NCBI GenBank assembly: GCA_000004695.1
Contig: CM000151.3
Span: 5,024,001 to 5,088,000, forward strand
DNA length: 64,000 bases
Origin: Dictyostelium discoideum
Taxonomy: Eukaryota
Direction of reading: 5' to 3'
Position numbers and translations under genes: made by a program. A model generated the notes under the pieces. That model did no database searches. It was given only the letters and a program-made list of their open reading frames with translations, and had not been told where the DNA came from. Every line of letters starts with the position of its first letter. Position 1 is the stretch's first letter. Of this stretch, positions 7,311 through 16,938 are shown one piece after another.

Positions 7311-8265
7311 ATGATAAAATTATTTTGTATATCAGCAATATTGTTTATATTCATTTTTTCACTTGGTGAAAGTACATTGATTAGACCAAATTTTTATTAT
7401 AGAATTGATTGGGAAAACATAAATTGTATTAGAGCTCCATGTCCACAATATTCAGCACAAAAAGTCAATACAAATGAAAATTCAACTGCAATTTTAAGTT
7501 TCATTTACCCAGATGGCTATAATAAATCATACCTTTTTTCTGAAGAGGCCAGATCTCTCATTATTTTTGGTTCTATCCAACCAAACCCAAATTTCCCAAC
7601 TGAAGCAAAAGATTTAAAAGTTGTAAGAGTTTATAAATCATTACCATTAGGTAACCCAGCATCAGCAACTGATAAATATTATATTTTTGGTGATAATGGT
7701 ATGTGTTTCATTTTTTTAAAATTATTATTATTATTATTATTATTATTATTTTTATAGAATAAATTATTAATATTTTTTTATTTTAAAATTAGGTGTCAGA
7801 TGTGTCACTACCCCATGTGCATCAACAGATGCAGTTTTATTGAATATCCGTACTAAACAAACTGTTAGTGATATACTCATGCCATATTCAAAGAACGTTG
7901 GTAAATATTTTGATTCTGCATGGTTAGGATCTAAAACAGTTAGATCAGATGACTATGGTTTAATCGGTCAAGGTACATTCAGTAGTGGAAAAATTACAAT
8001 ATCAAATGCTTTCATTCATTTACCAGATCCAATTGGTAAATGTGATTCATTGCCATTATTAAAATGTCCAGGTGGTTCGATTATGACATACTCTCGTAAT
8101 GAAAATCGTTGTTTAGCTTCTCCAACTTGCACTCAATCTTCATTCTGTACCTTGGGTATGCCACTTTGTCCAGCAGGTTATCGTTTAGATCAATTCAGAG
8201 CAACTGAAGCAAATGGATGTCCAAAATATTATTGTGATCCAACCTTTGTTTGTAAAACACATTAA
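7311..8265 (+). CDS. Secreted Cys-rich protein, paralog B; 2 exons: 7311..7698 and 7793..8265.
   Basis: Donor GTATGT at 7699 directly after '...TDKYYIFGDNG' (phase 1). Acceptor aattag at 7791-7792. Exon 2 begins 'VRCVTTPCAS...' and ends '...GCPKYYCDPTFVCKTH*'. Confidence 0.75.
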
Positions 8266-8869
8266 TTTCTTTTTTTGTTAATTTTCTAAACAATTGTAAA
8301 AAAAAAAAAAATAAAAAAAAAATAAACACCTCCTTTTTTATTATTAATTTTTTATTTTATTTTCAAAAGATTATAAATATTATTAATTGTTAATCACAAT
8401 TTTAAAAATTTTTTAATAATAATTTTATTTTCTTGAATTATTATTTTTTTTTTTAATAATCCTAAAATTAAAATAATTCAATTGGTATTTTATAAAATAT
8501 TGTAAATTCCAATTATTCAATAATTGTATACAATAGCCCAATAATTTACCTAATTTGGTACAATCTACAAATTTAAAAAATCACCCAAAATATTAAATTA
8601 TAACAATAGATATCAGAATTACTTCAATGATAATAAAAATATTCAGTTTTTAATTGAATTTTTATTTTTTATTTATTTTAAATTTAATAAAATTTTTTAT
8701 TTTTATTTTTTATCATTATTATTTTTTTTTTTTATTTTTTTTTTTTTTTTCAAAAAATAAATATAAATAATAGTTTTTTTTTTTATTTTTTATTTGAATT
8801 TTATTATTAAAATTATAAAATTAGTATATAATAATAATAATAACAATAATAATTAAAATAATTAAAATA

Positions 8870-9836
8870 ATGATTAAAAATTATAAATTACTTTTATTTA
8901 CAACATTCACTTTATTTTTTATTACATTTGTAAGTGGTAGTAGTATTTTAAAAGCAAACTTTTATTATAAAGTTGATTGGGAAAATGTTCAATGTTTCGT
9001 TCCACCATGTCCAAAATACACAATTCAAAAATTAAATACAAATGAAAAATCACAAAAAATTTTAGATTTCATTTTCCCAAATGGTTTAAATAAAACAACA
9101 CTTTTGGGTGATGAATCTAAAACTCTTATAGTTTTAGGTACCACTCAACCAAGTTCAAAATTCCCAAATAATGCAACTGATTTCCTTGTTACCAGAGTAT
9201 ATAAATCATTACCATTAGGTAATAAACAAACTTCAACTGATAAATATTATATGTTTGGTGATAATGGTAATTTTTAATTTATTTAATATTTATTTTTTTT
9301 TTTTAAAATTTATTAATATTTATTAATATTTATTAATATTTATTAATATTTATTTATTTATAGGAACAAGATGTAAGACATCACCATGTCCAAATATTGT
9401 TGCAGCTTTATTAAATGTACATAGTCAGGAAATAATAAATACAATTAGTCAACCATATGAGAAAAATGTAGGATTTTTAGATTCAGTTTGGTTAAGTTCA
9501 AAAAATATTAGATCTGATGATTTTGGTTTAATTGGACAAGGAACAATTAAAAATGGAGTTATTTCAATTTCAAATTCATTCATTTATTTACCAGATCCAC
9601 CAATAAAATGTCCAGAACTTCCATTATTGAAGTGTGTTGAAGGTAATTCCATGACCTATTCTCGTGATGAAAATCGTTGTCTTGTCTCACCAAGATGTAC
9701 TAAATTTGGTGTTTGCACTCTAAGTATTCCACTTTGTAATAAAGGTTATCGTCTCGTTTCTTTCCCATCAACTGAATTAAATGGTTGTCCAAAATTCTTC
9801 TGTGATCCAGAATTTGTTAATAAAACTCATAAATAA
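8870..9836 (+). CDS. Secreted Cys-rich protein, paralog C; 2 exons: 8870..9266 and 9364..9836.
   Basis: Donor GTAATT at 9267 after '...DKYYMFGDNG' (phase 1, same position as paralogs B and D). Acceptor tatag at 9361-9363. The intron contains a 10-mer (tattaatatt) repeated about 4.5 times. Exon 2 reads 'TRCKTSPCPN...GCPKFFCDPEFVNKTHK*'. Confidence 0.75.
9311..9356. repeat. Tandem 10-mer (tattaatatt) x ~4.5 within the intron of paralog C.
   Basis: Direct reading. Confidence 0.8.
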
Positions 9837-9895: not shown

Positions 9896-10041
9896 TTAAT
9901 TTTTAATTAATTGATCTATTTTAATAATCATAGAAACTGTATCAATAATCATTTTTAACATTATTTCTTTTCCTTTTAATGATTCAATAACTCCTAAATC
10001 TATCATATTACATAATTTACCATTTTCTAAATTAATTGAAA

Positions 10042-10083
<42 letters not shown>

Positions 10084-10426
10084 GAATTGATTTTAAATGT
10101 TGAAATAATATTATGGAGTCGAAACCAGCATTACTAATCAATAGTTTTGGTATTATTTCTAAAGATTTTGAAAATGCTTTTATACTATTCATATATTTAA
10201 TAATATCTTGTGGTTTTTCATTTTTCATTAATTCTTTAAACTTATCACTCTTTATAAATTTTTCTAATTCAACCGATAACATTATTTCATTTGAGCCACC
10301 ACCTGCAATAACCTTTTTACTTTCAACAATTAATGATAATATTGAAATTGAATCATTTAATGACTGTGTGTATATAATATATATTTGAAAGAATTTAAAA
10401 AGTAGTAATTAATTAATATATTATTT

Positions 10427-10488
<62 letters not shown>

Positions 10489-12134
10489 ATCTCTTACCCT
10501 TTGAACTTCTTCAATAATGAATATCGAAGGTGCTTTTAATAAAAATGTACATATTTTACAATTATTATTTTTAATCTCTATGTAATATTCTGATTGTTTT
10601 TCAAATAAAATATTTAAATTACAATTACCAAAAATACTACCACCACTACTGCTACTATTTTTAGTGATATTTGATGTAATTGAATTTAAAATTACTGAAG
10701 AATTTGTAACTTGTTGAATATTAAATAATTGATTATTATCTAGATTAAAAATTGTTTTTATATTATTATCTTGTAATAATTTCAAACAAGATAATGATAT
10801 TCTTTTACTTGAAAAAATTATAATATTATTATTATTATTGCAAGTTGTATTTTGTTTTTTTAAATTATCAATAAATTCTTTTGCCTGTTTAATTTCCAAT
10901 TGTCTTTTTTCATTTTCAATCATTTCTCTTTTCTATAAAAAAATAAAATAAAATAAAATAAAATAATATTACTTTTAGTTAATTATTTTTATTATTATCA
11001 TTATCATCTAATTTTTTTTTTTTTAAAAAAAAAATACAAACATTAAAATTTAAATTACTATATTGAATAAGTTTAAAAGAATTTTCATCAATATATCCAA
11101 TATCAAAATTAATTAAAACTACATTAAAAGTTAAAGCTAGTGATGGTGATGATGAAATTTCATTATTATTATTATTATTATTAATTGAAATTAAATTTGA
11201 ATAATTTAAATTTAGTGGTAATATTATACCTCTAATTAATTTACTTGATGATATATTATTACCTAATAATTTAATATATTTTACATTTGATTGAATATTA
11301 TCAAATACTCTAATTTTATCGATTTTATCACCATCAAAACCATTATCATCATCATCATCATCATTATCATCATTATGTTTAACTATCTCTTTAATTATTG
11401 ATATTGCTTCAAAACAATATCTTGTAAACTGTTTTACATAGCTATTTAATATTTTTGATGATAATGAAGTTGATATAATTTGTTCAAGTATTTTAATTGT
11501 TTCATATTCGCTACCACTATTATTATTATTATTAATAATATTAAAATTATTTGATAATAAATCATTTGTTATTGATAATTCAATAGAATTTGAGTTTAAT
11601 AATAATTTAGATTGTTCATATGCTATGGTGAATGCTTTAATGATTAAATTTGGATGATAGTTTCTGATTAATAGTTTTTCTGATTCTTTTAATAATTTAC
11701 AAGCTAAAATAACTCCAGATGTAGTACCATCACCTATTTTTGTCTGAATGAATGTAGTACATAATTACAATTAATTAGTATATATTTTTTAAAAATATGA
11801 ATAAAATACACAAGTATTGTGTACACAATTTTATGGTTTTTTTTTTATTTTTTTTTATTCAAATATTAGTAATATAAAAAATACATACATCAATTGAATT
11901 TGATAATTGTTGTAATATAATACCTAATGGATGTGAAATAGGTAATGATTTCATGATAGTTGCACCATCATTTGTTATTATCAAATCATCAGTATCGAGT
12001 TGTTGACTTTCATTTTTTTCAAATGTTTTACTCTTTTGTATATTCACAATCACTTTATCTAATCCTTTTGGTCCTAGTGATGTTGATAATATTTTAAATA
12101 TTGCATGAACTGCTGTGAATTCTAATTGTTTCAT
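9896..12134 (-). CDS. Highly divergent TCP-1/cpn60-family (CCT-like group II chaperonin) protein, 4 exons: 12134..11889, 11743..11042, 10932..10498 and 10363..9896 on the minus strand.
   Basis: All four equatorial ATP-binding motifs are present: 'LGPKGLDKVIV', 'ITNDGATIM', 'IGDGTTSGVILA' (at the start of exon 2, which has no ATG and so is absent from the ORF track) and 'AGGGSNEIMLS' (start of exon 4). The C-terminus '...MIIKIDQLIKN' is CCT-like. The middle (apical) region is replaced by N/D-rich low complexity. Donors are GTATGT at 11888, GTTTGT at 11041 (weak) and GTAAGA at 10497. Acceptors are ..ttcag, ..tatag and ..cacag. All exons are phase 0. Confidence 0.6.
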
Positions 12135-13104
12135 TAAATCTCTCCCATTTGAATATCTGATTGATCAGAGTTAAAAATAAAAAAAATAAAAAAAATAAAA
12201 AAAAAAAATTTGAAAAGTCATTTCACAAAAACAAAAAAAAAAAAAAAAAACTTTTTTATTTTGCCATAATCAATTTTGTTTATTTTTAATGTAATTTTTT
12301 GATTTTGTTGATGGTTTTTTAATGGTTATACTTGAATTAATAATAATAAAAGAATAAATAAAAAAAATTAATATGTTAATTAAAAATTAATCAAAAACCA
12401 AAATAATAATAATTAGGAAATCAAATAATTTTGATTATTAACCCTTTACACCATTGTCTAAATTACAATACACCTGCAAATGTATCAAAAATAAAATAAA
12501 ATAAAATAAAATAAAATAAAACAAAATAAATTAAATTAAATTAAAAAATAGTTTTCAAAGAAATAATATTTTCTTAAGTAAAAATTATGTATTAAAGAAT
12601 GTTGGTAAATTGAAAAAAAAAAAAAAAAAAAATTTGGAAAAAAAAAAAACTAACTAGTTAGTTTTTTTTTTTTCCAAACCAATCCATTAATTTAAAATCT
12701 TGGGATAATAAAAATCCCCCCAAAAAAAAGATCAATACTATCGTTTGTTTATAATGTTTAATCAAAATTGTATAGGTTGAATATAAAAAAAAGAAAATTA
12801 AAAGAAAAAAAAACATTTTATTATTTATTATAAAATAAATTTAATTTTGACCAATCAAAAAAAAAAAAAAGATTTTTGTTGAAAATTTTTAAAAAAAAAG
12901 TTAAAATAATAGATGCGAATATTTGCATCTTCAACCTCTAAAAAAAAACCCTTTGACTAAGATCCTACCAAATTCATATTATAATTCCATTAAAAAAAAA
13001 ATAATAATAAAAAAAATAGTAAAAGTTTATTTTAAATTTCCTTTCTAATAAATTGATATGATTTTTTATTTAAAATTATTTTTTTAGTTTTTTTGAATTA
13101 ATTT

Positions 13105-13141
<37 letters not shown>

Positions 13142-13231
13142 CCTAAAAGTATAAATAGAATATAAAATAAATTTTATTTTATAATTTAAATTTTAATATT
13201 TAAAAACAATAATAAAAAAAAAAAAAAGAAA
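12135..13231. promoter_or_regulatory. Divergent AT-rich promoter region between the CCT-like gene (minus) and paralog D (plus). It contains a 20-nt near-palindrome at 12911-12930.
   Basis: The two genes are head-to-head. The palindrome is 'agatgcGaatattTgcatct', with only a single symmetric mismatch pair. Oligo(dT)/(dA) tracts of Dictyostelium-promoter type are present. Confidence 0.3.
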
Positions 13232-14183
13232 ATGTTAAAAAATACATTTATTACTTTAATCTTTACAATTATTTCAATTTCAATTTGTTTTGGTAGTCAA
13301 TTACCAACAAACTATTATTTCAAAGTTACCCATGTTCCAATTTATTGTATTACCACACCGTGCAGTCAATACCGTGTCTATAAGGTAAATACTCAAGATC
13401 CAGAGATTGTTATTGAAAATTTCGTTTTCCCAAATGGAGTTGAACAAAACTATTTCTCACTTCAAGAAGCCAATACTGCTATCCTTTATGGTACTATCAT
13501 TGCAAACAGAAATGGTTACAATGTAAATGATTTTAAAGTAAAAAGAGTTTATAAACAACTTCCACAAGGTAATGCTTTAACATCAACTGATAAATATTAT
13601 ATGTTTGCTTCATCAGGTAATTATTATTATTATTTTTATAATTATTATATATTATCCAATTTTAATAATTATTAATTGTTTTTTTTTTTTAATTTTACCA
13701 ACAGGTATTGTTTGCATTACAACACCATGCCCATCAGTTTCAGCAATTTTATTAAATATTGATAATGCTGCAACCAATGTTAATGATGTTAAGCAACCAT
13801 ATGAAAGTAATGTACCACTTTTCGATAGCAATTGGTTATTCCAAAAGCAATTTGAGTCAGAATCTAACAGATTGATTGGTGTTGGTACAATTAATAGTCA
13901 AGGTGAAGTGATTGTTTCTTCTTCTTTTGTAAGATTACCAGATCCAATTTCAAATTGTCCAGCATTACCATTATTAAAATGTCAAGGTGGTCATGTTACA
14001 GTTTACGAAAGAGATTCAAATCGTTGTTTAACAAATCCACAATGTTCAAATGATAATGACACTCGTGCTTGTATCCTTTCAATTCCAACCTGCTCAACTG
14101 GTTATGATTTAGTATCTTATACTTCTATTTCAACTTGTCCAGCATACAACTGTGATGCTTATTTCTTAACAAAAACTTATTGA
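13232..14183 (+). CDS. Secreted Cys-rich protein, paralog D; 2 exons: 13232..13616 and 13705..14183.
   Basis: Signal peptide MLKNTFITLIFTIISISICFG. Donor GTAATT at 13617 after '...DKYYMFASSG' (phase 1). Acceptor ..caacag at 13703-13704. Exon 2 reads 'IVCITTPCPS...CPAYNCDAYFLTKTY*'. Confidence 0.75.
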
Positions 14184-14289
14184 ATTTAATTTAAATACAT
14201 ATATTTATAAATAAATAAAAAAAAATAGTAATATATTTTTTTTTTATCACGTACTGGTACTCTTTTATATTGACAATATCTTTTTTGTG

Positions 14290-14290
<1 letters not shown>

Positions 14291-14368
<78 letters not shown>

Positions 14369-14370
14369 AT
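14291..14370. repeat. (AAAT)n microsatellite, about 20 copies, in the convergent 3' intergenic region between paralog D and top3.
   Basis: Direct reading gives aaataaataaat... across 80 nt. Confidence 0.9.
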
Positions 14371-14465
14371 TTTTAAACTTTTGTTAAATAAAGAAATTAA
14401 TTTTATTTAAAAAAAAAAAAAATAAATAAATAAATAAATGAAAATAATAATAGTTTACATTTCGT

Positions 14466-14633
14466 TTAAAAAATAAAATTATTATTATTACGATCTGAAT
14501 TTCTATTGTTATTATTAAAATTATTATTAGATGCTGTAAAAGTTCTATGTTGAGTTGTTGTTCTAGTTGTTCTAGTTGTTATTGGTCTTGCGCTATTTGT
14601 GTTATTATTGTTATTATTTCTATTATAATTTGT

Positions 14634-14674
<41 letters not shown>

Positions 14675-16938
14675 TACCAGTTGCTAAATTGCAATTAAAT
14701 GTACATTGAAAACAATGAAATGGTTTTTTATGAATTGGGTCAGGTGGAGAATTTCTACATTTTGGACAAATTGTATAACTTTTATCGTTTATAGGATTTC
14801 TTACACTAAGAACTTGATATTGACAAATTGGACAATTTTGTGGTACACCCATTGAAGTTACCAATTGAGAGATATCACCATTCTTTGGTAAATCAAAAGT
14901 ATCAATACATTGAGGACAAAATAAAATTCTTTTTGGTGCTTCTGGATTTTGATCAGATTTATATTGCATTTTACCATTACATTTACCACAACGTGAGAAT
15001 TGAGAAACCAAAACACGAAATTCACCACCTTTTGGATCGGCAGGTTCATAATATTCTCTAAATGATCTATCGAAACAATTTATATTTTGATTTGCCAATT
15101 GATAAAGTTGTTTATACTTTTCAATGGTTGATAAGAGTACTTCTTGTTTAGTTTTTTGACCTCTACTAATTTTATCTACATCAGCTTCGATTGCAGCTCT
15201 AAGATTTGGTTTTGAAAATTCAAATCCCATTAATTCATAACTTGCAACCAATGATACACCTAAATTTGAGGGAACAAATTGATTACTTTCATTCTTTTTA
15301 ACATAAAAACGATCTTGAATAGTTTGAATATGAGTTGCCATCGTTGCATCTGTACCGATTTTATTATTATCCATGGCTGTCAATAGTTCTGCCTCTGTTA
15401 TATAATGAGGTGCAACGGTTGTACCTTTTGTAAGATCAATTCTTTTTGGTGTAAATCTTTCACCTTTTTGATAGGTTGGTATTAGTTTATCATTACGTTT
15501 ATCGAATGGATAAACTTCAAGATAACCCAATTTCAAAACCATTGTACCAGTCTCTGAAAATCTTTCACCCTGAATATCGATGGTAACCGTTGTATTTGCA
15601 AATACAGATTCCTCAGAACAACATGCTAAAAATCTACGAGTAATGAAATCATAAATCTTTTTCAAATTACCCGATAAACCAGTGGCTGATGAAGTTGGAT
15701 GAATTGGTGGATGTGAATTATCATTGTTTTTACCTGATTTTGGATAAACAAATTGATTGTTATTAATTAATCTACTTGCATAAGCACCCCATTCAGGATT
15801 TGATGCTTGGTTACCAATCAAACCTTTTAAATCGGTTCCTGCTTGAAATGAATCTGTCTCTGTTCTTGGATAACTAATTAAGCCTTTTGTATAAAGTTCC
15901 TCTGCATATTGCATAGTTTGAACTGATGAAATTCTTAACTTTTTCGATGCCGCCTTTTGAAGTTCAATCGTTGTCAAAGGTACAGGTCTATATCTACTCT
16001 CTTTTGAAGTAACATCAACAACCGTTGCCTCTGTATTATCTAAACATTTCTCATACAATATAAATGCAGCTGTATAATCAAACAAACGATTTCTACACCA
16101 TGAAAATGTAACAGGTATCATCTTACCACTACTAGTATCCATTTTTTCATGAACCACTGATAAATGCCAAAAATCCTCTGGTTTAAAATTTACAATTCTA
16201 AAATATCTTTCAACTACAAATCCTAAAGTTGGAAATTGGCATGGTCCATAACTAATAATTTCTTTACCACTTGAATTATTATTACTATTATTAAGTATAT
16301 TACCATTTGCTGGTGTAGTAGTCTTTGGTTGATTATCACTATTTGAAATGATTTTAAATTTCTTTAAATATAAAGTTTGAAATCTTGTGAAAGCAGCACC
16401 AATTCTAAGATCAATCTCCATTCTAGTATCAACTGCAATTGAATCTTTTTCATTTGGTTTTGCAAGGTTTTTACAAGCTCTATCAATTTCTCTTGGAATG
16501 ATTGCAGAGAAATGTGCTCTATAAAATTCAAATTTCTTTTTAGCATTTTTACAAACTTCCAATACTTCAAATGCAATATTTTCACCCTCTCTATCACAAT
16601 CTAACCAAAGAATTAATATATCAGCTTTCTTTATCTCTCTTTCCAATGTTTTCTTTAATGGTTCTTTATCTGATGGTACTGTTTTTCTTATTGGTGCATC
16701 AAATAATTGAATTGGATCGCATGATGCCCATGGTTTAAATTGTTCAACTACATCAATCTCCATTAAATGACCTGTAACTGATGTGAATGTCATTTCGCAA
16801 TCATTAAAATTCAATATATTATATTTAAAATCCCAAAGTTTATTATATTTTGAAAATCCTTCTCTCTTTTTTTTAAATAATAAAAATGAATAAAATAAAA
16901 AAAATAAAATAAAATGTTTGTAAATAATTAATAATTTT

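What the first reader, a model, noticed from the sequence alone, without database searches (positions are those of the whole stretch)
9896..12134. Highly divergent CCT/TCP-1-like chaperonin paralog with intact ATP-binding motifs and a low-complexity apical region
The gene keeps the four equatorial-domain nucleotide-binding signatures (LGPKGLDK, ITNDGATIM, GDGTTSGV, GGGSNEIM) and a CCT-like C-terminus. Elsewhere it is far more divergent than canonical CCT1-8 subunits, which are extremely conserved. Its apical-domain region is largely N/D-rich low complexity. Known divergent group II chaperonin-likes (MKKS/BBS6, BBS10, BBS12) are cilium-associated, and this organism type lacks cilia, so a stand-alone divergent CCT-like protein is unexpected. 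Exon 2, which carries the GDGTT motif, has no in-frame ATG and is missing from the ORF track.
Basis: partly seen in the sequence, partly recalled or inferred. Interest (0 to 1): 0.6.

Follow-up and report, generated by a model that had tools for sequence, protein, structure and literature searches.

The report
Orphan chaperonin paralog of social amoebae
This is a real, intact gene for a fast-evolving extra copy of the CCT/thermosome protein-folding subunit that is found only in dictyostelid social amoebae, keeps a complete ATP site, and belongs neither to the eight standard CCT subunits nor, by sequence, to the cilium-linked BBS chaperonin-likes; its existence was already noted in a 2023 paper, but its function is unknown.

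Summary
The gene is real: four exons on the minus strand (9896-12134) encode 616 aa. An independent annotation of a syntenic Dictyostelium genome, conserved intron positions in D. purpureum and an intronless Acytostelium ortholog all support the model. The protein is a full-length group II chaperonin (Pfam 260 bits; AlphaFold pLDDT 81, three domains with a lid region) and keeps every canonical ATP-site residue. It fails all eight CCT-subunit models (at most 202 bits against cutoffs of 456-800; true CCTs score 811-898). It evolves about 6.5 times faster than CCT-beta and lacks the N-terminal strand segment. Orthologs occur across Dictyostelia and nowhere else among 1.84 billion representative proteins. 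The apical domain is folded and only sparsely low-complexity, so that part of the finding is overstated; it is, however, the least conserved domain. Ewerling et al. 2023 described what is almost certainly this gene (DDB_G0268902) as "BBS12-like", with caution. My profile comparisons do not support that label: the clade scores 537 against thermosome, 526 against CCT-alpha and 31 against BBS12. Its tree position is unresolved. The most likely reading is an ATP-driven chaperonin-like protein that works outside the standard ring. Interest is moderate; this is a new variant of a known kind.

The parts
9896..12134 (-). Whole gene: 4 exons and 3 introns, encoding a 616-aa group II chaperonin-like protein (stop codon included)
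   Evidence: Assembled and translated. Pfam Cpn60_TCP1 scores 260 bits over residues 14-615. Transferring the same exon boundaries to the syntenic locus L001 reproduces the NCBI-annotated protein P0001 exactly.
11889..12134 (-). Exon 1 (aa 1-82): start codon, LGPKGLDK (aa 20-27), stem-loop, ITNDGATIM (aa 53-61)
   Evidence: There is an in-frame stop 11 codons upstream of the ATG and no upstream exon candidate.
11997..12032 (-). 12-aa insertion (aa 35-46, SKTFEKNESQQL) between LGPKG and TNDG, in the stem-loop region; low model confidence; absent in the Heterostelium and Acytostelium orthologs
   Evidence: Insertion relative to 30 canonical sequences; pLDDT below 50 at residues 37-46; clade alignment.
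11744..11888 (-). Intron 1 (145 nt, GTATGT..TTCAG, phase 0)
   Evidence: GC 0.15. The position is conserved in D. purpureum and L001.
11042..11743 (-). Exon 2 (aa 83-316): GDGTTSGV phosphate-binding loop (aa 86-93), TSLSSK nucleotide-sensing-loop lysine K179, intermediate domain, first half of the apical domain
   Evidence: The open frame has no ATG, GTG or TTG.
11318..11377 (-). Asp/Asn-rich insertion (aa 205-224, HNDDNDDDDDDNGFDGDKID) in the intermediate domain, predicted disordered
   Evidence: pLDDT below 50 at residues 206-222; length varies among orthologs.
10564..11233 (-). Region encoding the apical domain (aa 253-439, interrupted by intron 2), including the lid-region segment and the long helix 315-347
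   Evidence: Domain mapping through the alignment to the Thermococcus thermosome; AF2 secondary structure; full-length Foldseek matches to closed CCT and thermosome subunits; lowest conservation in the clade.
10933..11041 (-). Intron 2 (109 nt, GTTTGT..TATAG, phase 0)
   Evidence: The position is conserved in D. purpureum.
10498..10932 (-). Exon 3 (aa 317-461): rest of the apical domain and the start of the C-terminal intermediate segment, ending ...EEVQR
10364..10497 (-). Intron 3 (134 nt, GTAAGA..ACACAG, phase 0), containing a long homopolymer tract
   Evidence: It splits the conserved motif EEVQR|SLNDS, which only splicing restores. The position is conserved in D. purpureum.
9896..10363 (-). 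Exon 4 (aa 462-616 plus stop): catalytic-Asp helix SLNDS (D465), GGGSNEIM (aa 482-489), C-terminal equatorial domain ending in the last helix with no C-terminal tail
10043..10081 (-). Poly-Asn run (aa 556-568) in the C-terminal equatorial domain, a lineage-specific low-complexity tract
   Evidence: It is shorter or interrupted in P0001 and absent in other orthologs.

Best explanation
The locus encodes a functional, Dictyostelia-specific orphan paralog of the group II chaperonin subunit family (CCT/thermosome). It is very probably the gene listed as DDB_G0268902. Shown: it has the complete equatorial-intermediate-apical fold with a lid region, keeps every canonical nucleotide-binding and hydrolysis residue, is under purifying selection, is conserved across dictyostelid lineages, evolves several times faster than a canonical CCT subunit (fastest in the apical, client-facing domain), and lacks the N-terminal segment containing the first beta-strand of canonical subunits. 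Inferred: it binds and hydrolyses ATP and uses that cycle to open and close its apical/lid region as a chaperonin subunit does. It probably does not sit as a regular member of the eight-subunit CCT ring. More likely it acts alone or docked to CCT as a specialised holdase or assembly factor for lineage-specific clients, by analogy with the BBS6/10/12 and CCT8L proteins but of independent origin. Its ancestry (a duplicate of a CCT1/alpha-like gene or an older paralog) is unresolved.
For: Gene reality: splice model; exact reproduction of an independent annotation, exons about 98% against introns 71-91% identical, dN/dS 0.22; the same three intron positions in D. purpureum; a collinear uninterrupted ORF in Acytostelium. 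Family: Pfam 260 bits; AF2 pLDDT 81 and pTM 0.79; Foldseek TM 0.81-0.86 to human CCT1 and thermosomes. ATP site: all columns invariant across 37 group II chaperonins are kept, including D87, T89, T90, K179, D465 and G484; motif table. Not CCT1-8: at most 305 bits on any model for any clade member against 811-898 for true subunits. Distribution: orthologs in D. discoideum, D. purpureum, Polysphondylium, Heterostelium, Acytostelium and Tieghemostelium. In an exhaustive HMM search of 1.84 billion representatives the clade scores 685 bits or more and the next genuine hit scores 243. Monophyly 200/200. Rate 6.5 times CCT-beta and apical identity 29%. N-terminal segment absent, with no upstream exon. 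No BBS affinity: hhalign 31 to BBS12 and 93 to MKKS, against 526-537 to alpha and thermosome.
Against: There are no expression, localisation, oligomeric-state or ATPase data. 'Works outside the ring' rests on the missing N-terminal strand, the variable stem-loop insertions, the fast rate and analogy. Loss of ring contacts was not measured, because no contact-residue analysis or multimer modelling was possible. My trees are neighbour-joining only and lack CCT gamma, epsilon, zeta and theta sequences. A published ML tree places the D. discoideum sequence sister to animal BBS12 (PMC10074162). Identity with DDB_G0268902 is inferred: the exact 616-aa sequence is not in the protein collection. Sampling of non-dictyostelid Amoebozoa is thin, and divergent chaperonin-likes exist in Ceratiomyxa.
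Confidence: 0.6

Rival explanations
1. It is a true ortholog of animal BBS12, retained in Dictyostelia after loss of cilia and the BBSome and put to another use (the cautious reading of Ewerling et al. 2023).
For: The published ML tree puts DDB_G0268902 sister to animal BBS12 'with good support' (PMC10074162, read). Like the BBS proteins it is a stand-alone, fast-evolving chaperonin-like that is outside CCT1-8.
Against: The profile-profile score of the clade against BBS12 is 31 (probability 4.7%, 114 columns), against 526-537 for CCT-alpha and thermosome. BBS12 itself matches CCT-alpha (76) better than it matches the clade (33). BBS12 is degenerate at TNDGAT, GDGTT and the catalytic-Asp helix, where the clade is canonical, and BBS12 has a large insertion after the nucleotide-sensing loop that the clade lacks. 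BBS proteins are reported to derive from CCT8 (PMC2846930), yet the clade's score on the CCT8/theta model is among its lowest. In NJ bootstraps the clade is never sister to BBS12 alone, and it jumps to whichever other long branch is added, which is typical of long-branch attraction. The authors themselves urge caution because no other unciliated organism has BBS12. Caveat: my BBS12 profile is amniote-only.
Confidence: 0.07
2. It is an alternative or ninth ring subunit, for example a fast-evolving duplicate of CCT1/alpha, that swaps into the hetero-oligomeric CCT ring under particular conditions or developmental stages.
For: The least-diverged orthologs rank alpha > thermosome > eta on the NCBIfam models, the same order as a true CCT-alpha. 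The best phmmer match outside the clade is CCT-alpha, or alpha tied with thermosome. The NJ point estimate is sister to alpha (data sets t1 and t4). The best Foldseek hit is human CCT1. The ATP site and lid region are intact.
Against: Bootstrap support for an alpha sister is only 35/200 (70-73/200 with the slow-evolving members). The N-terminal strand segment is absent in all orthologs; from established thermosome/CCT structures this strand takes part in the inter-subunit beta-sheet. The rate is 6.5 times that of CCT-beta and the apical domain is only 29% identical within the clade, unlike ring subunits, whose positions and clients are fixed.
Confidence: 0.15
3. It descends from an archaeal thermosome gene acquired by horizontal transfer into the dictyostelid ancestor, and may form its own homo-oligomeric ring.
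For: Thermosomes are the most numerous top hits outside the clade. hhalign is marginally highest against thermosome (537 against 526 for alpha).
Against: Thermosome model cutoffs are not met (182-280 bits against 400-671). Canonical eukaryotic CCT-alpha also has thermosomes as its next-best match, so this pattern is not specific. The gene has three spliceosomal introns and host-like 19-26% GC. A thermosome-only sister appears in about 35/200 bootstraps. Ewerling et al. found no archaeal sequence with affinity for it. The N-terminal strand is missing.
Confidence: 0.05
4. It is a decaying or non-functional duplicate, or an annotation artefact that stitches unrelated ORFs together.
For: The sequence is highly divergent, has low-complexity insertions, and has no experimental support.
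Against: The reading frame is intact in at least seven genomes spanning Dictyostelia. All catalytic residues are invariant. dN/dS is 0.22 and exons are much better conserved than introns. The conserved motif EEVQR|SLNDS is restored only by splicing intron 3. The Acytostelium ORF is collinear and intronless. The full-length fold prediction is confident.
Confidence: 0.03

Closest known systems
Canonical group II chaperonin subunits: eukaryotic CCT1/TCP-1 alpha and archaeal thermosome subunits
   Same: Same Pfam family (Cpn60_TCP1) and the same three-domain fold with a lid region (TM 0.81-0.86). All nucleotide-site motifs are identical or conservatively substituted: LGPKG, TNDGAT, GDGTTS, the sensing-loop Lys, the catalytic Asp and GGG. 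These are the closest families by HMM and profile score.
   Different: It scores at most 305 bits against 800 or more for a real alpha subunit. It evolves about 6.5 times faster than CCT-beta, lacks the roughly 18-residue N-terminal strand segment and the C-terminal tail, carries lineage-variable insertions, has a poorly conserved apical domain, and is restricted to Dictyostelia.
BBS chaperonin-like proteins (MKKS/BBS6, BBS10, BBS12)
   Same: These are also stand-alone, fast-evolving group II chaperonin paralogs outside CCT1-8, with changes at regions used for ring contacts. They are the functional analogy for a non-ring, CCT-associated assembly factor (PMC5534436, PMC2846930). A published tree places the Dictyostelium sequence next to BBS12 (PMC10074162).
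   Different: There is no specific profile similarity (31 to BBS12, 93 to MKKS). The ATP-hydrolysis motifs are intact here but degenerate in BBS6 and BBS12. There is no affinity to CCT8. From established knowledge and PMC10074162, the host lacks cilia and the BBSome. BBS10 was not retrieved and so was not tested.
CCT8L1/CCT8L2 (mammalian divergent CCT8 retrogenes)
   Same: A lineage-restricted extra chaperonin gene under purifying selection that is thought not to form the canonical complex (PMC2846930).
   Different: CCT8L genes are intronless retrocopies of CCT8 confined to mammals. This gene has three introns in D. discoideum and D. purpureum, shows no CCT8 affinity, and is far older, being shared across Dictyostelia.
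DDB_G0268902, the 'BBS12-like' sequence of D. discoideum in Ewerling et al. 2023
   Same: The description matches. It is the single D. discoideum chaperonin-like sequence that is not a member of any CCT family, its orthologs occur in Dictyostelia, and thermosomes are the best BLAST hits outside Dictyostelia. I see the same pattern.
   Different: Identity is inferred, not proven. No sequence is printed in the paper, no supplements are held, and the exact window protein is not in the collection. The window is 90-95% identical in DNA to the one available D. discoideum assembly locus.

Membership tests
Group II chaperonin superfamily (Pfam PF00118 Cpn60_TCP1) | Full-length match to the family HMM above the gathering threshold | tested here: met
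   260.1 bits against a cutoff of 34.3; residues 14-615 cover profile positions 3-487 of 490.
Group II chaperonin superfamily (Pfam PF00118 Cpn60_TCP1) | Equatorial, intermediate and apical domains with a built-in lid region | tested here: met
   AF2 pLDDT 81 and pTM 0.79, with low confidence only at the low-complexity inserts. Foldseek gives full-length matches to closed CCT and thermosome subunits, TM 0.81-0.86.
Group II chaperonin superfamily (Pfam PF00118 Cpn60_TCP1) | Nucleotide-binding and hydrolysis residues: GP of LGPKG, NDG, GDGTT, sensing-loop Lys, catalytic Asp, GGG | tested here: met
   All columns invariant across 37 sequences are retained; motif table; they are also invariant within the clade.
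Group II chaperonin superfamily (Pfam PF00118 Cpn60_TCP1) | N-terminal beta-strand segment (PVxxLxxGT...) that contributes to the inter-subunit sheet of the ring | tested here: not met
   Thermococcus residues 7-24 have no counterpart. There is an in-frame stop 11 codons upstream and no upstream exon. The canonical motif is absent in all orthologs.
Group II chaperonin superfamily (Pfam PF00118 Cpn60_TCP1) | Assembly into a double-ring 16- or 18-mer | not testable with these tools
   This needs native mass measurement, cryo-EM or multimer modelling.
Canonical CCT subunits alpha to theta (NCBIfam TIGR02340-02347 equivalogs) | Score above the curated equivalog cutoff of one subunit model | tested here: not met
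   Window protein: best is alpha at 202 bits against 800; all eight models fail. Five orthologs score 112-305 bits and all fail. Controls: CCT beta 879, alpha 898, eta 811.
Canonical CCT subunits alpha to theta (NCBIfam TIGR02340-02347 equivalogs) | Placement inside one subunit clade with an ordinary branch length | tested here: not met
   Distances to alpha, beta, eta, delta and thermosome are 1.7-2.0, against about 1.5 between families. The sister group is unresolved (alpha 35-73 of 200). The rate is 6.5 times CCT-beta. Gamma, epsilon, zeta and theta were absent from the tree and are covered only by the HMM scores.
BBS12 | Specific sequence or profile similarity to BBS12 orthologs | tested here: not met
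   hhalign score 31.2, probability 4.7%, 114 columns. BBS12 against CCT-alpha scores 76. The BBS12 profile is amniote-only.
BBS12 | Degenerate, unrecognisable ATP-hydrolysis motif and BBS12-specific insertions (PMC5534436, PMC2846930) | tested here: not met
   The clade has GDGTTS, TNDGAT and SLNDS where BBS12 has RTGTS, SSTVRL and FWTC. The large BBS12 insertion after the sensing loop is absent.
BBS12 | Sister or nested position with BBS12 in a phylogeny | tested here: inconclusive
   The published ML tree places it sister to BBS12, with caution. My NJ bootstraps never give a BBS12-only sister, and placement follows whichever long branch is present. The method is crude.
BBS12 | Co-occurrence with cilia and a BBSome to assemble | not tested
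   From established knowledge and PMC10074162, dictyostelids build no cilia and lack the BBSome. I did not search the genome myself.
MKKS/BBS6 | Specific profile similarity to MKKS orthologs | tested here: not met
   MKKS against the clade scores 92.7, lower than MKKS against thermosome (157), beta (134) and alpha (115). The MKKS profile is mammal-only.
BBS10 | Specific similarity to BBS10, the BBS member reported to keep the hydrolysis motif | not tested
   The BBS10 bait returned no listed hits, because MKKS filled the top 120.
Archaeal thermosome | Score above the NCBIfam thermosome cutoffs, or nesting in an archaeal clade | tested here: not met
   182-189 bits against cutoffs of 400-671 for the window protein, and at most 280 for orthologs. 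A thermosome-only sister appears in about 35 of 200 bootstraps. The gene has spliceosomal introns.

The most novel reading that the evidence does not exclude
Dictyostelia independently evolved an ATP-hydrolysing group II chaperonin that no longer lives in the CCT ring. It would be a monomeric or CCT-docking ATPase whose rapidly evolving apical domain handles lineage-specific clients, for example proteins of multicellular development. That would be a convergent counterpart of the animal BBS chaperonin-likes in an organism without cilia, and it would remove the only evidence that BBS12 predates animals.
Probability: 0.3. Interest if true: 0.6.

Novelty: new variant of a known kind. Interest (0 to 1): 0.4.

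Why it matters
Extra chaperonin genes outside the eight-subunit CCT ring are rare, and the characterised ones (BBS6/10/12) are tied to cilia. A ninth, ATPase-competent, ring-contact-altered chaperonin conserved across an unciliated, genetically tractable lineage gives a simple system (D. discoideum knockouts and tagging) for asking what a chaperonin subunit can do on its own. It also bears on a published claim. If this protein is not a BBS12 ortholog, as the profile comparisons here indicate, the proposed pre-metazoan origin of BBS12 loses its only non-animal representative. The gene itself is already in the databases as a hypothetical protein and has been mentioned in one paper, so this is a refinement rather than a discovery.

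Tried and rejected
1. Canonical CCT subunit: rejected with calibrated NCBIfam models.
2. Relatives outside Dictyostelia: P0121 (331 bits) looked intermediate but is a tandem double thermosome from an Asgard archaeon whose score is summed over two units. P0122 is a fragmentary model of another clade member.
3. The NJ sister pair, Ceratiomyxa P0174 and Gefionella P0158 (164/200): rejected as long-branch attraction, because both score higher to canonical families than to the clade by phmmer and hhalign.
4. BBS12 and MKKS affinity: rejected at the profile level.
5. A missed upstream exon explaining the short N-terminus: none found.
6. Pseudogene: rejected.
7. Linking the window to DDB_G0268902 through the supplements, neighbouring gene IDs or an exact-sequence lookup: nothing found.
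9. The BBS10 bait failed to surface BBS10 hits.
10. I could not obtain CCT gamma, epsilon, zeta or theta sequences for the tree. Those families are covered only by HMM scores.
All analyses used the database sequences returned and named by NCBI or UniRef.
Full report
OBSERVATION. The window is about 20% GC with poly-Asn/Asp codon runs, which is typical of Dictyostelium. On the minus strand between 9896 and 12134 I assembled four phase-0 exons: 12134-11889, 11743-11042, 10932-10498 and 10363-9896. The introns are GT..AG, 145, 109 and 134 nt long, at 7-15% GC against 19-26% in the exons. The product is 616 aa. The open frame around exon 2 (261 codons) contains no ATG, GTG or TTG, which is why the mechanical ORF list omits it.

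IS THE GENE MODEL RIGHT? There is no transcript evidence here, but four independent lines agree.
- The window is collinear with, and 90-95% identical in DNA to, a locus of a D. discoideum assembly (GCA_054859385.1, L001). Transferring my exon boundaries to L001 reproduces the NCBI-annotated 609-aa protein P0001 exactly. Exons are about 98% identical, introns 71-91%, and dN/dS is 0.22.
- D. purpureum has the same four exons, with introns at the homologous positions.
- In Acytostelium the ortholog is one uninterrupted 575-codon ORF running collinearly through all three junction positions.
- Intron 3 splits EEVQR|SLNDS. This matches the conserved group II helix that carries the catalytic Asp, and it is restored only by splicing.

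WHAT IT IS. Pfam Cpn60_TCP1 matches from end to end at 260 bits. An AlphaFold2 model built on a 37-sequence alignment is confident (pLDDT 81, pTM 0.79). Low confidence is confined to residues 1-3, 37-46, 206-222, 273-282 and 406-413, and all but the first stretch coincide with low-complexity insertions. Foldseek aligns the whole chain to closed-state group II subunits, with TM 0.81-0.86 normalised to the target; the best hits are human CCT1 and the Thermococcus KS-1 thermosome. So an apical domain exists. It maps to about residues 253-439, contains only 12 residues in N/D runs, and includes the lid region with a long helix at 315-347. The apical domain is, however, the least conserved part of the family: 29% mean identity and 4 of 187 invariant columns, against 55% in the N-terminal equatorial segment.

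ATP SITE. Every column that is invariant across 37 group II chaperonins is retained: G21, P22, G24, D26, N55, D56, G57, T59, G86, D87, G88, T89, T90, T174, K179, D465, G484 and E487, among others. The same residues are invariant within the dictyostelid clade. A side-by-side motif table shows the clade reading like CCT or thermosome at all six motifs. I infer from sequence that the protein binds and hydrolyses ATP; this was not measured.

NOT ONE OF CCT1-8. NCBIfam has a curated equivalog model for each CCT subunit. The window protein's best score is 202 bits, on alpha, against a cutoff of 800, and all eight models fail. Five orthologs score 112-305 bits on every model. As controls, genuine Dictyostelium CCT-beta scores 879 on its own model, a CCT-alpha 898 and a CCT-eta 811. 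These canonical proteins score 256-512 on the other subunit and thermosome models, which is higher than the clade scores on anything. Over the same species pair (D. discoideum and Tieghemostelium) the Kimura distance is 1.11 for this family against 0.17 for CCT-beta, about 6.5 times faster.

DISTRIBUTION. A word-indexed search found orthologs in D. discoideum (95% identity), D. purpureum (60%), Polysphondylium violaceum, Heterostelium album, Acytostelium subglobosum and Tieghemostelium lacteum. All are named 'hypothetical' or 'uncharacterized'. After them the scores drop to about 150 bits for thermosomes and CCTs. An exhaustive HMM search of 1.84 billion cluster representatives with the clade profile gave 685-849 bits for clade members, and then a continuum from 243 bits downward made of thermosomes, CCT-alpha, beta, eta and delta. 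Two apparent intermediates turned out not to be. P0121 is an Asgard tandem double thermosome whose score is summed over two units. P0122 is a fragmentary EukProt model with the clade's own signatures. As far as current data show, the family is restricted to Dictyostelia.

STRUCTURAL DEPARTURES. Relative to 30 canonical sequences the window protein has insertions of 12, 18, 20, 15, 5, 7 and 13 aa. Most vary in length among the orthologs, and the stem-loop insertion is absent in Heterostelium and Acytostelium. The protein also lacks the roughly 18-residue N-terminal segment (Thermococcus residues 7-24, QPVVILPEGTQRYVGRDA) and the C-terminal tail. The short N-terminus is real: an in-frame stop lies 11 codons upstream, and the 1.2 kb upstream is 14% GC in its proximal 300 nt and holds no candidate exon. 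From established thermosome and CCT structures, the N-terminal strand pairs with the neighbouring subunit's stem-loop in the ring. Its loss, the variable stem-loop insertion and the fast rate are my grounds for inferring that the protein is not a regular ring subunit. This is an inference and was not tested.

PRIOR LITERATURE AND THE BBS12 QUESTION. Ewerling et al. 2023 (PMC10074162) report a single D. discoideum sequence, DDB_G0268902. [quoted passage not shown] This matches the present gene in every described respect. I could not prove identity, because no sequence is held and the exact protein is not in the collection. To test the BBS link I retrieved real BBS12 and MKKS sequences, using remembered human sequences only as bait. 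The hits are named by NCBI and UniRef and are 97-98% identical to the bait. Profile-profile scores for the clade are: thermosome 537, CCT-alpha 526, eta 484, beta 476, delta 378 and BBS12 31 (probability 4.7%). BBS12 matches CCT-alpha (76) better than it matches the clade (33). MKKS matches thermosome (157), beta (134) and alpha (115) better than the clade (93). BBS12 and MKKS are degenerate at TNDGAT, GDGTT and the catalytic-Asp helix, where the clade is canonical. This agrees with the literature, which describes the BBS12 hydrolysis motif as unrecognisable and derives the BBS proteins from CCT8 (PMC5534436, PMC2846930). The clade's score on the CCT8/theta model is among its lowest.

PHYLOGENY. 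In bootstrapped NJ trees the clade is monophyletic (199-200 of 200). Its sister is unresolved: alpha in 35-73 of 200, with beta, eta, delta and thermosome also appearing. It is never BBS12 alone. It jumps to other divergent sequences (Ceratiomyxa, Gefionella) when they are added, even though these score better to canonical families than to the clade. That is long-branch behaviour. I conclude that there is no positive sequence evidence for BBS12 or BBS6 orthology and that the ancestry is unresolved, with a weak lean toward a CCT-alpha-like source. Caveats: the method was NJ only, the BBS profiles are amniote-only or mammal-only, BBS10 was not tested, and four CCT families are represented only through HMM scores.

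MECHANISM. Shown: a complete fold, an intact nucleotide site, purifying selection, clade-wide retention, a fast-evolving apical domain and a missing N-terminal strand segment. Inferred: an ATP-driven open-and-close cycle like that of any group II subunit, operating outside the standard ring, either alone or docked to CCT, on lineage-specific clients. In this it would resemble the BBS and CCT8L proteins functionally while having an independent origin. The rivals are a BBS12 ortholog (0.07), an alternative ring subunit (0.15), an archaeal transfer (0.05) and a non-functional gene (0.03).

CONTEXT. The neighbours are ordinary chromosomal genes: a beta-lactamase-like protein, Top3, a CUE-domain protein, an ankyrin-DHHC palmitoyltransferase, an FNIP-repeat protein, a class II aminoacyl-tRNA synthetase and choline kinase. 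There are no tRNAs. Nothing suggests an operon-like functional link.

VERDICT. The finding is real and its core interpretation is right. One descriptive claim is overstated. The oddity has already been flagged in print under a label that my data do not support. I rate it a new variant of a known kind, with interest 0.4.

Noticed in passing
Not in the window: proteins P0132, P0135, P0197, P0200: There is a second, separate group of divergent group II chaperonin-likes that meet no CCT model cutoff: Polysphondylium violaceum CYY_001247 (563 aa, best eta 298 bits against 669), a Ceratiomyxa fruticulosa transcript, and two metagenome/Logan proteins. They are mutual best hits (191-406 bits) and distinct from the window gene's clade, so Amoebozoa may carry more than one orphan chaperonin family.
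   Followed up: partly
Not in the window: P0174 (Ceratiomyxa) and P0158 (Gefionella okellyi, a malawimonad): These are further divergent singleton chaperonin-likes in flagellated protists. P0158 might correspond to the malawimonad 'BBS6 candidate' class mentioned by Ewerling et al., but it scores only 27 against my mammalian MKKS profile, compared with 471 against thermosome.
   Followed up: partly
Not in the window: P0121 (1057 aa, Candidatus Freyarchaeota) and P0126 (1047 aa): These are single polypeptides made of two complete thermosome-like units in tandem, one of them in an Asgard archaeon: covalently fused chaperonin subunit pairs.
   Followed up: no
Whole window against L001 (GCA_054859385.1, JBTAPF010000017.1:3445778-3467961): The two loci are collinear but only 85-95% identical in DNA (about 98% in the chaperonin exons), although the assembly is labelled D. 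discoideum. The exact 616-aa protein is absent from a collection of about 15 billion proteins. Either the window or that assembly represents a noticeably diverged lineage.
   Followed up: partly
window 8870-9836 (+) and about 12260-14800; L001 genes at 7940-8901, 12262-13232, 13814-14765: The chaperonin gene is flanked on both sides by paralogous small genes annotated in L001 as DUF6748, with three copies in that locus. The copy in the window begins with a hydrophobic N-terminus (MIKNYKLLLFTTFTLFFITFVSG...) and its last ORF ends 60 nt from the chaperonin stop codon, convergently.
   Followed up: no
window 12134-12148 (-): A 4-codon upstream ORF (ATG GGA GAG ATT TAA) has a stop codon that overlaps the A of the main start codon (TAATG). 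In DNA this AT-rich it could be chance.
   Followed up: no
window about 10418-10482 (inside intron 3): A very long homopolymer tract (T-run followed by A-run on the + strand) lies inside the 134-nt intron. The intron is 34 nt shorter in L001 (100 nt), consistent with slippage in this tract.
   Followed up: no
L003 1501-3228 (Acytostelium subglobosum): The ortholog is a single 575-codon ORF, yet the deposited 558-aa protein lacks a 17-aa stretch (APSPKDEDQAQEAGTH region). This suggests that a short in-frame segment was annotated as an intron.
   Followed up: no
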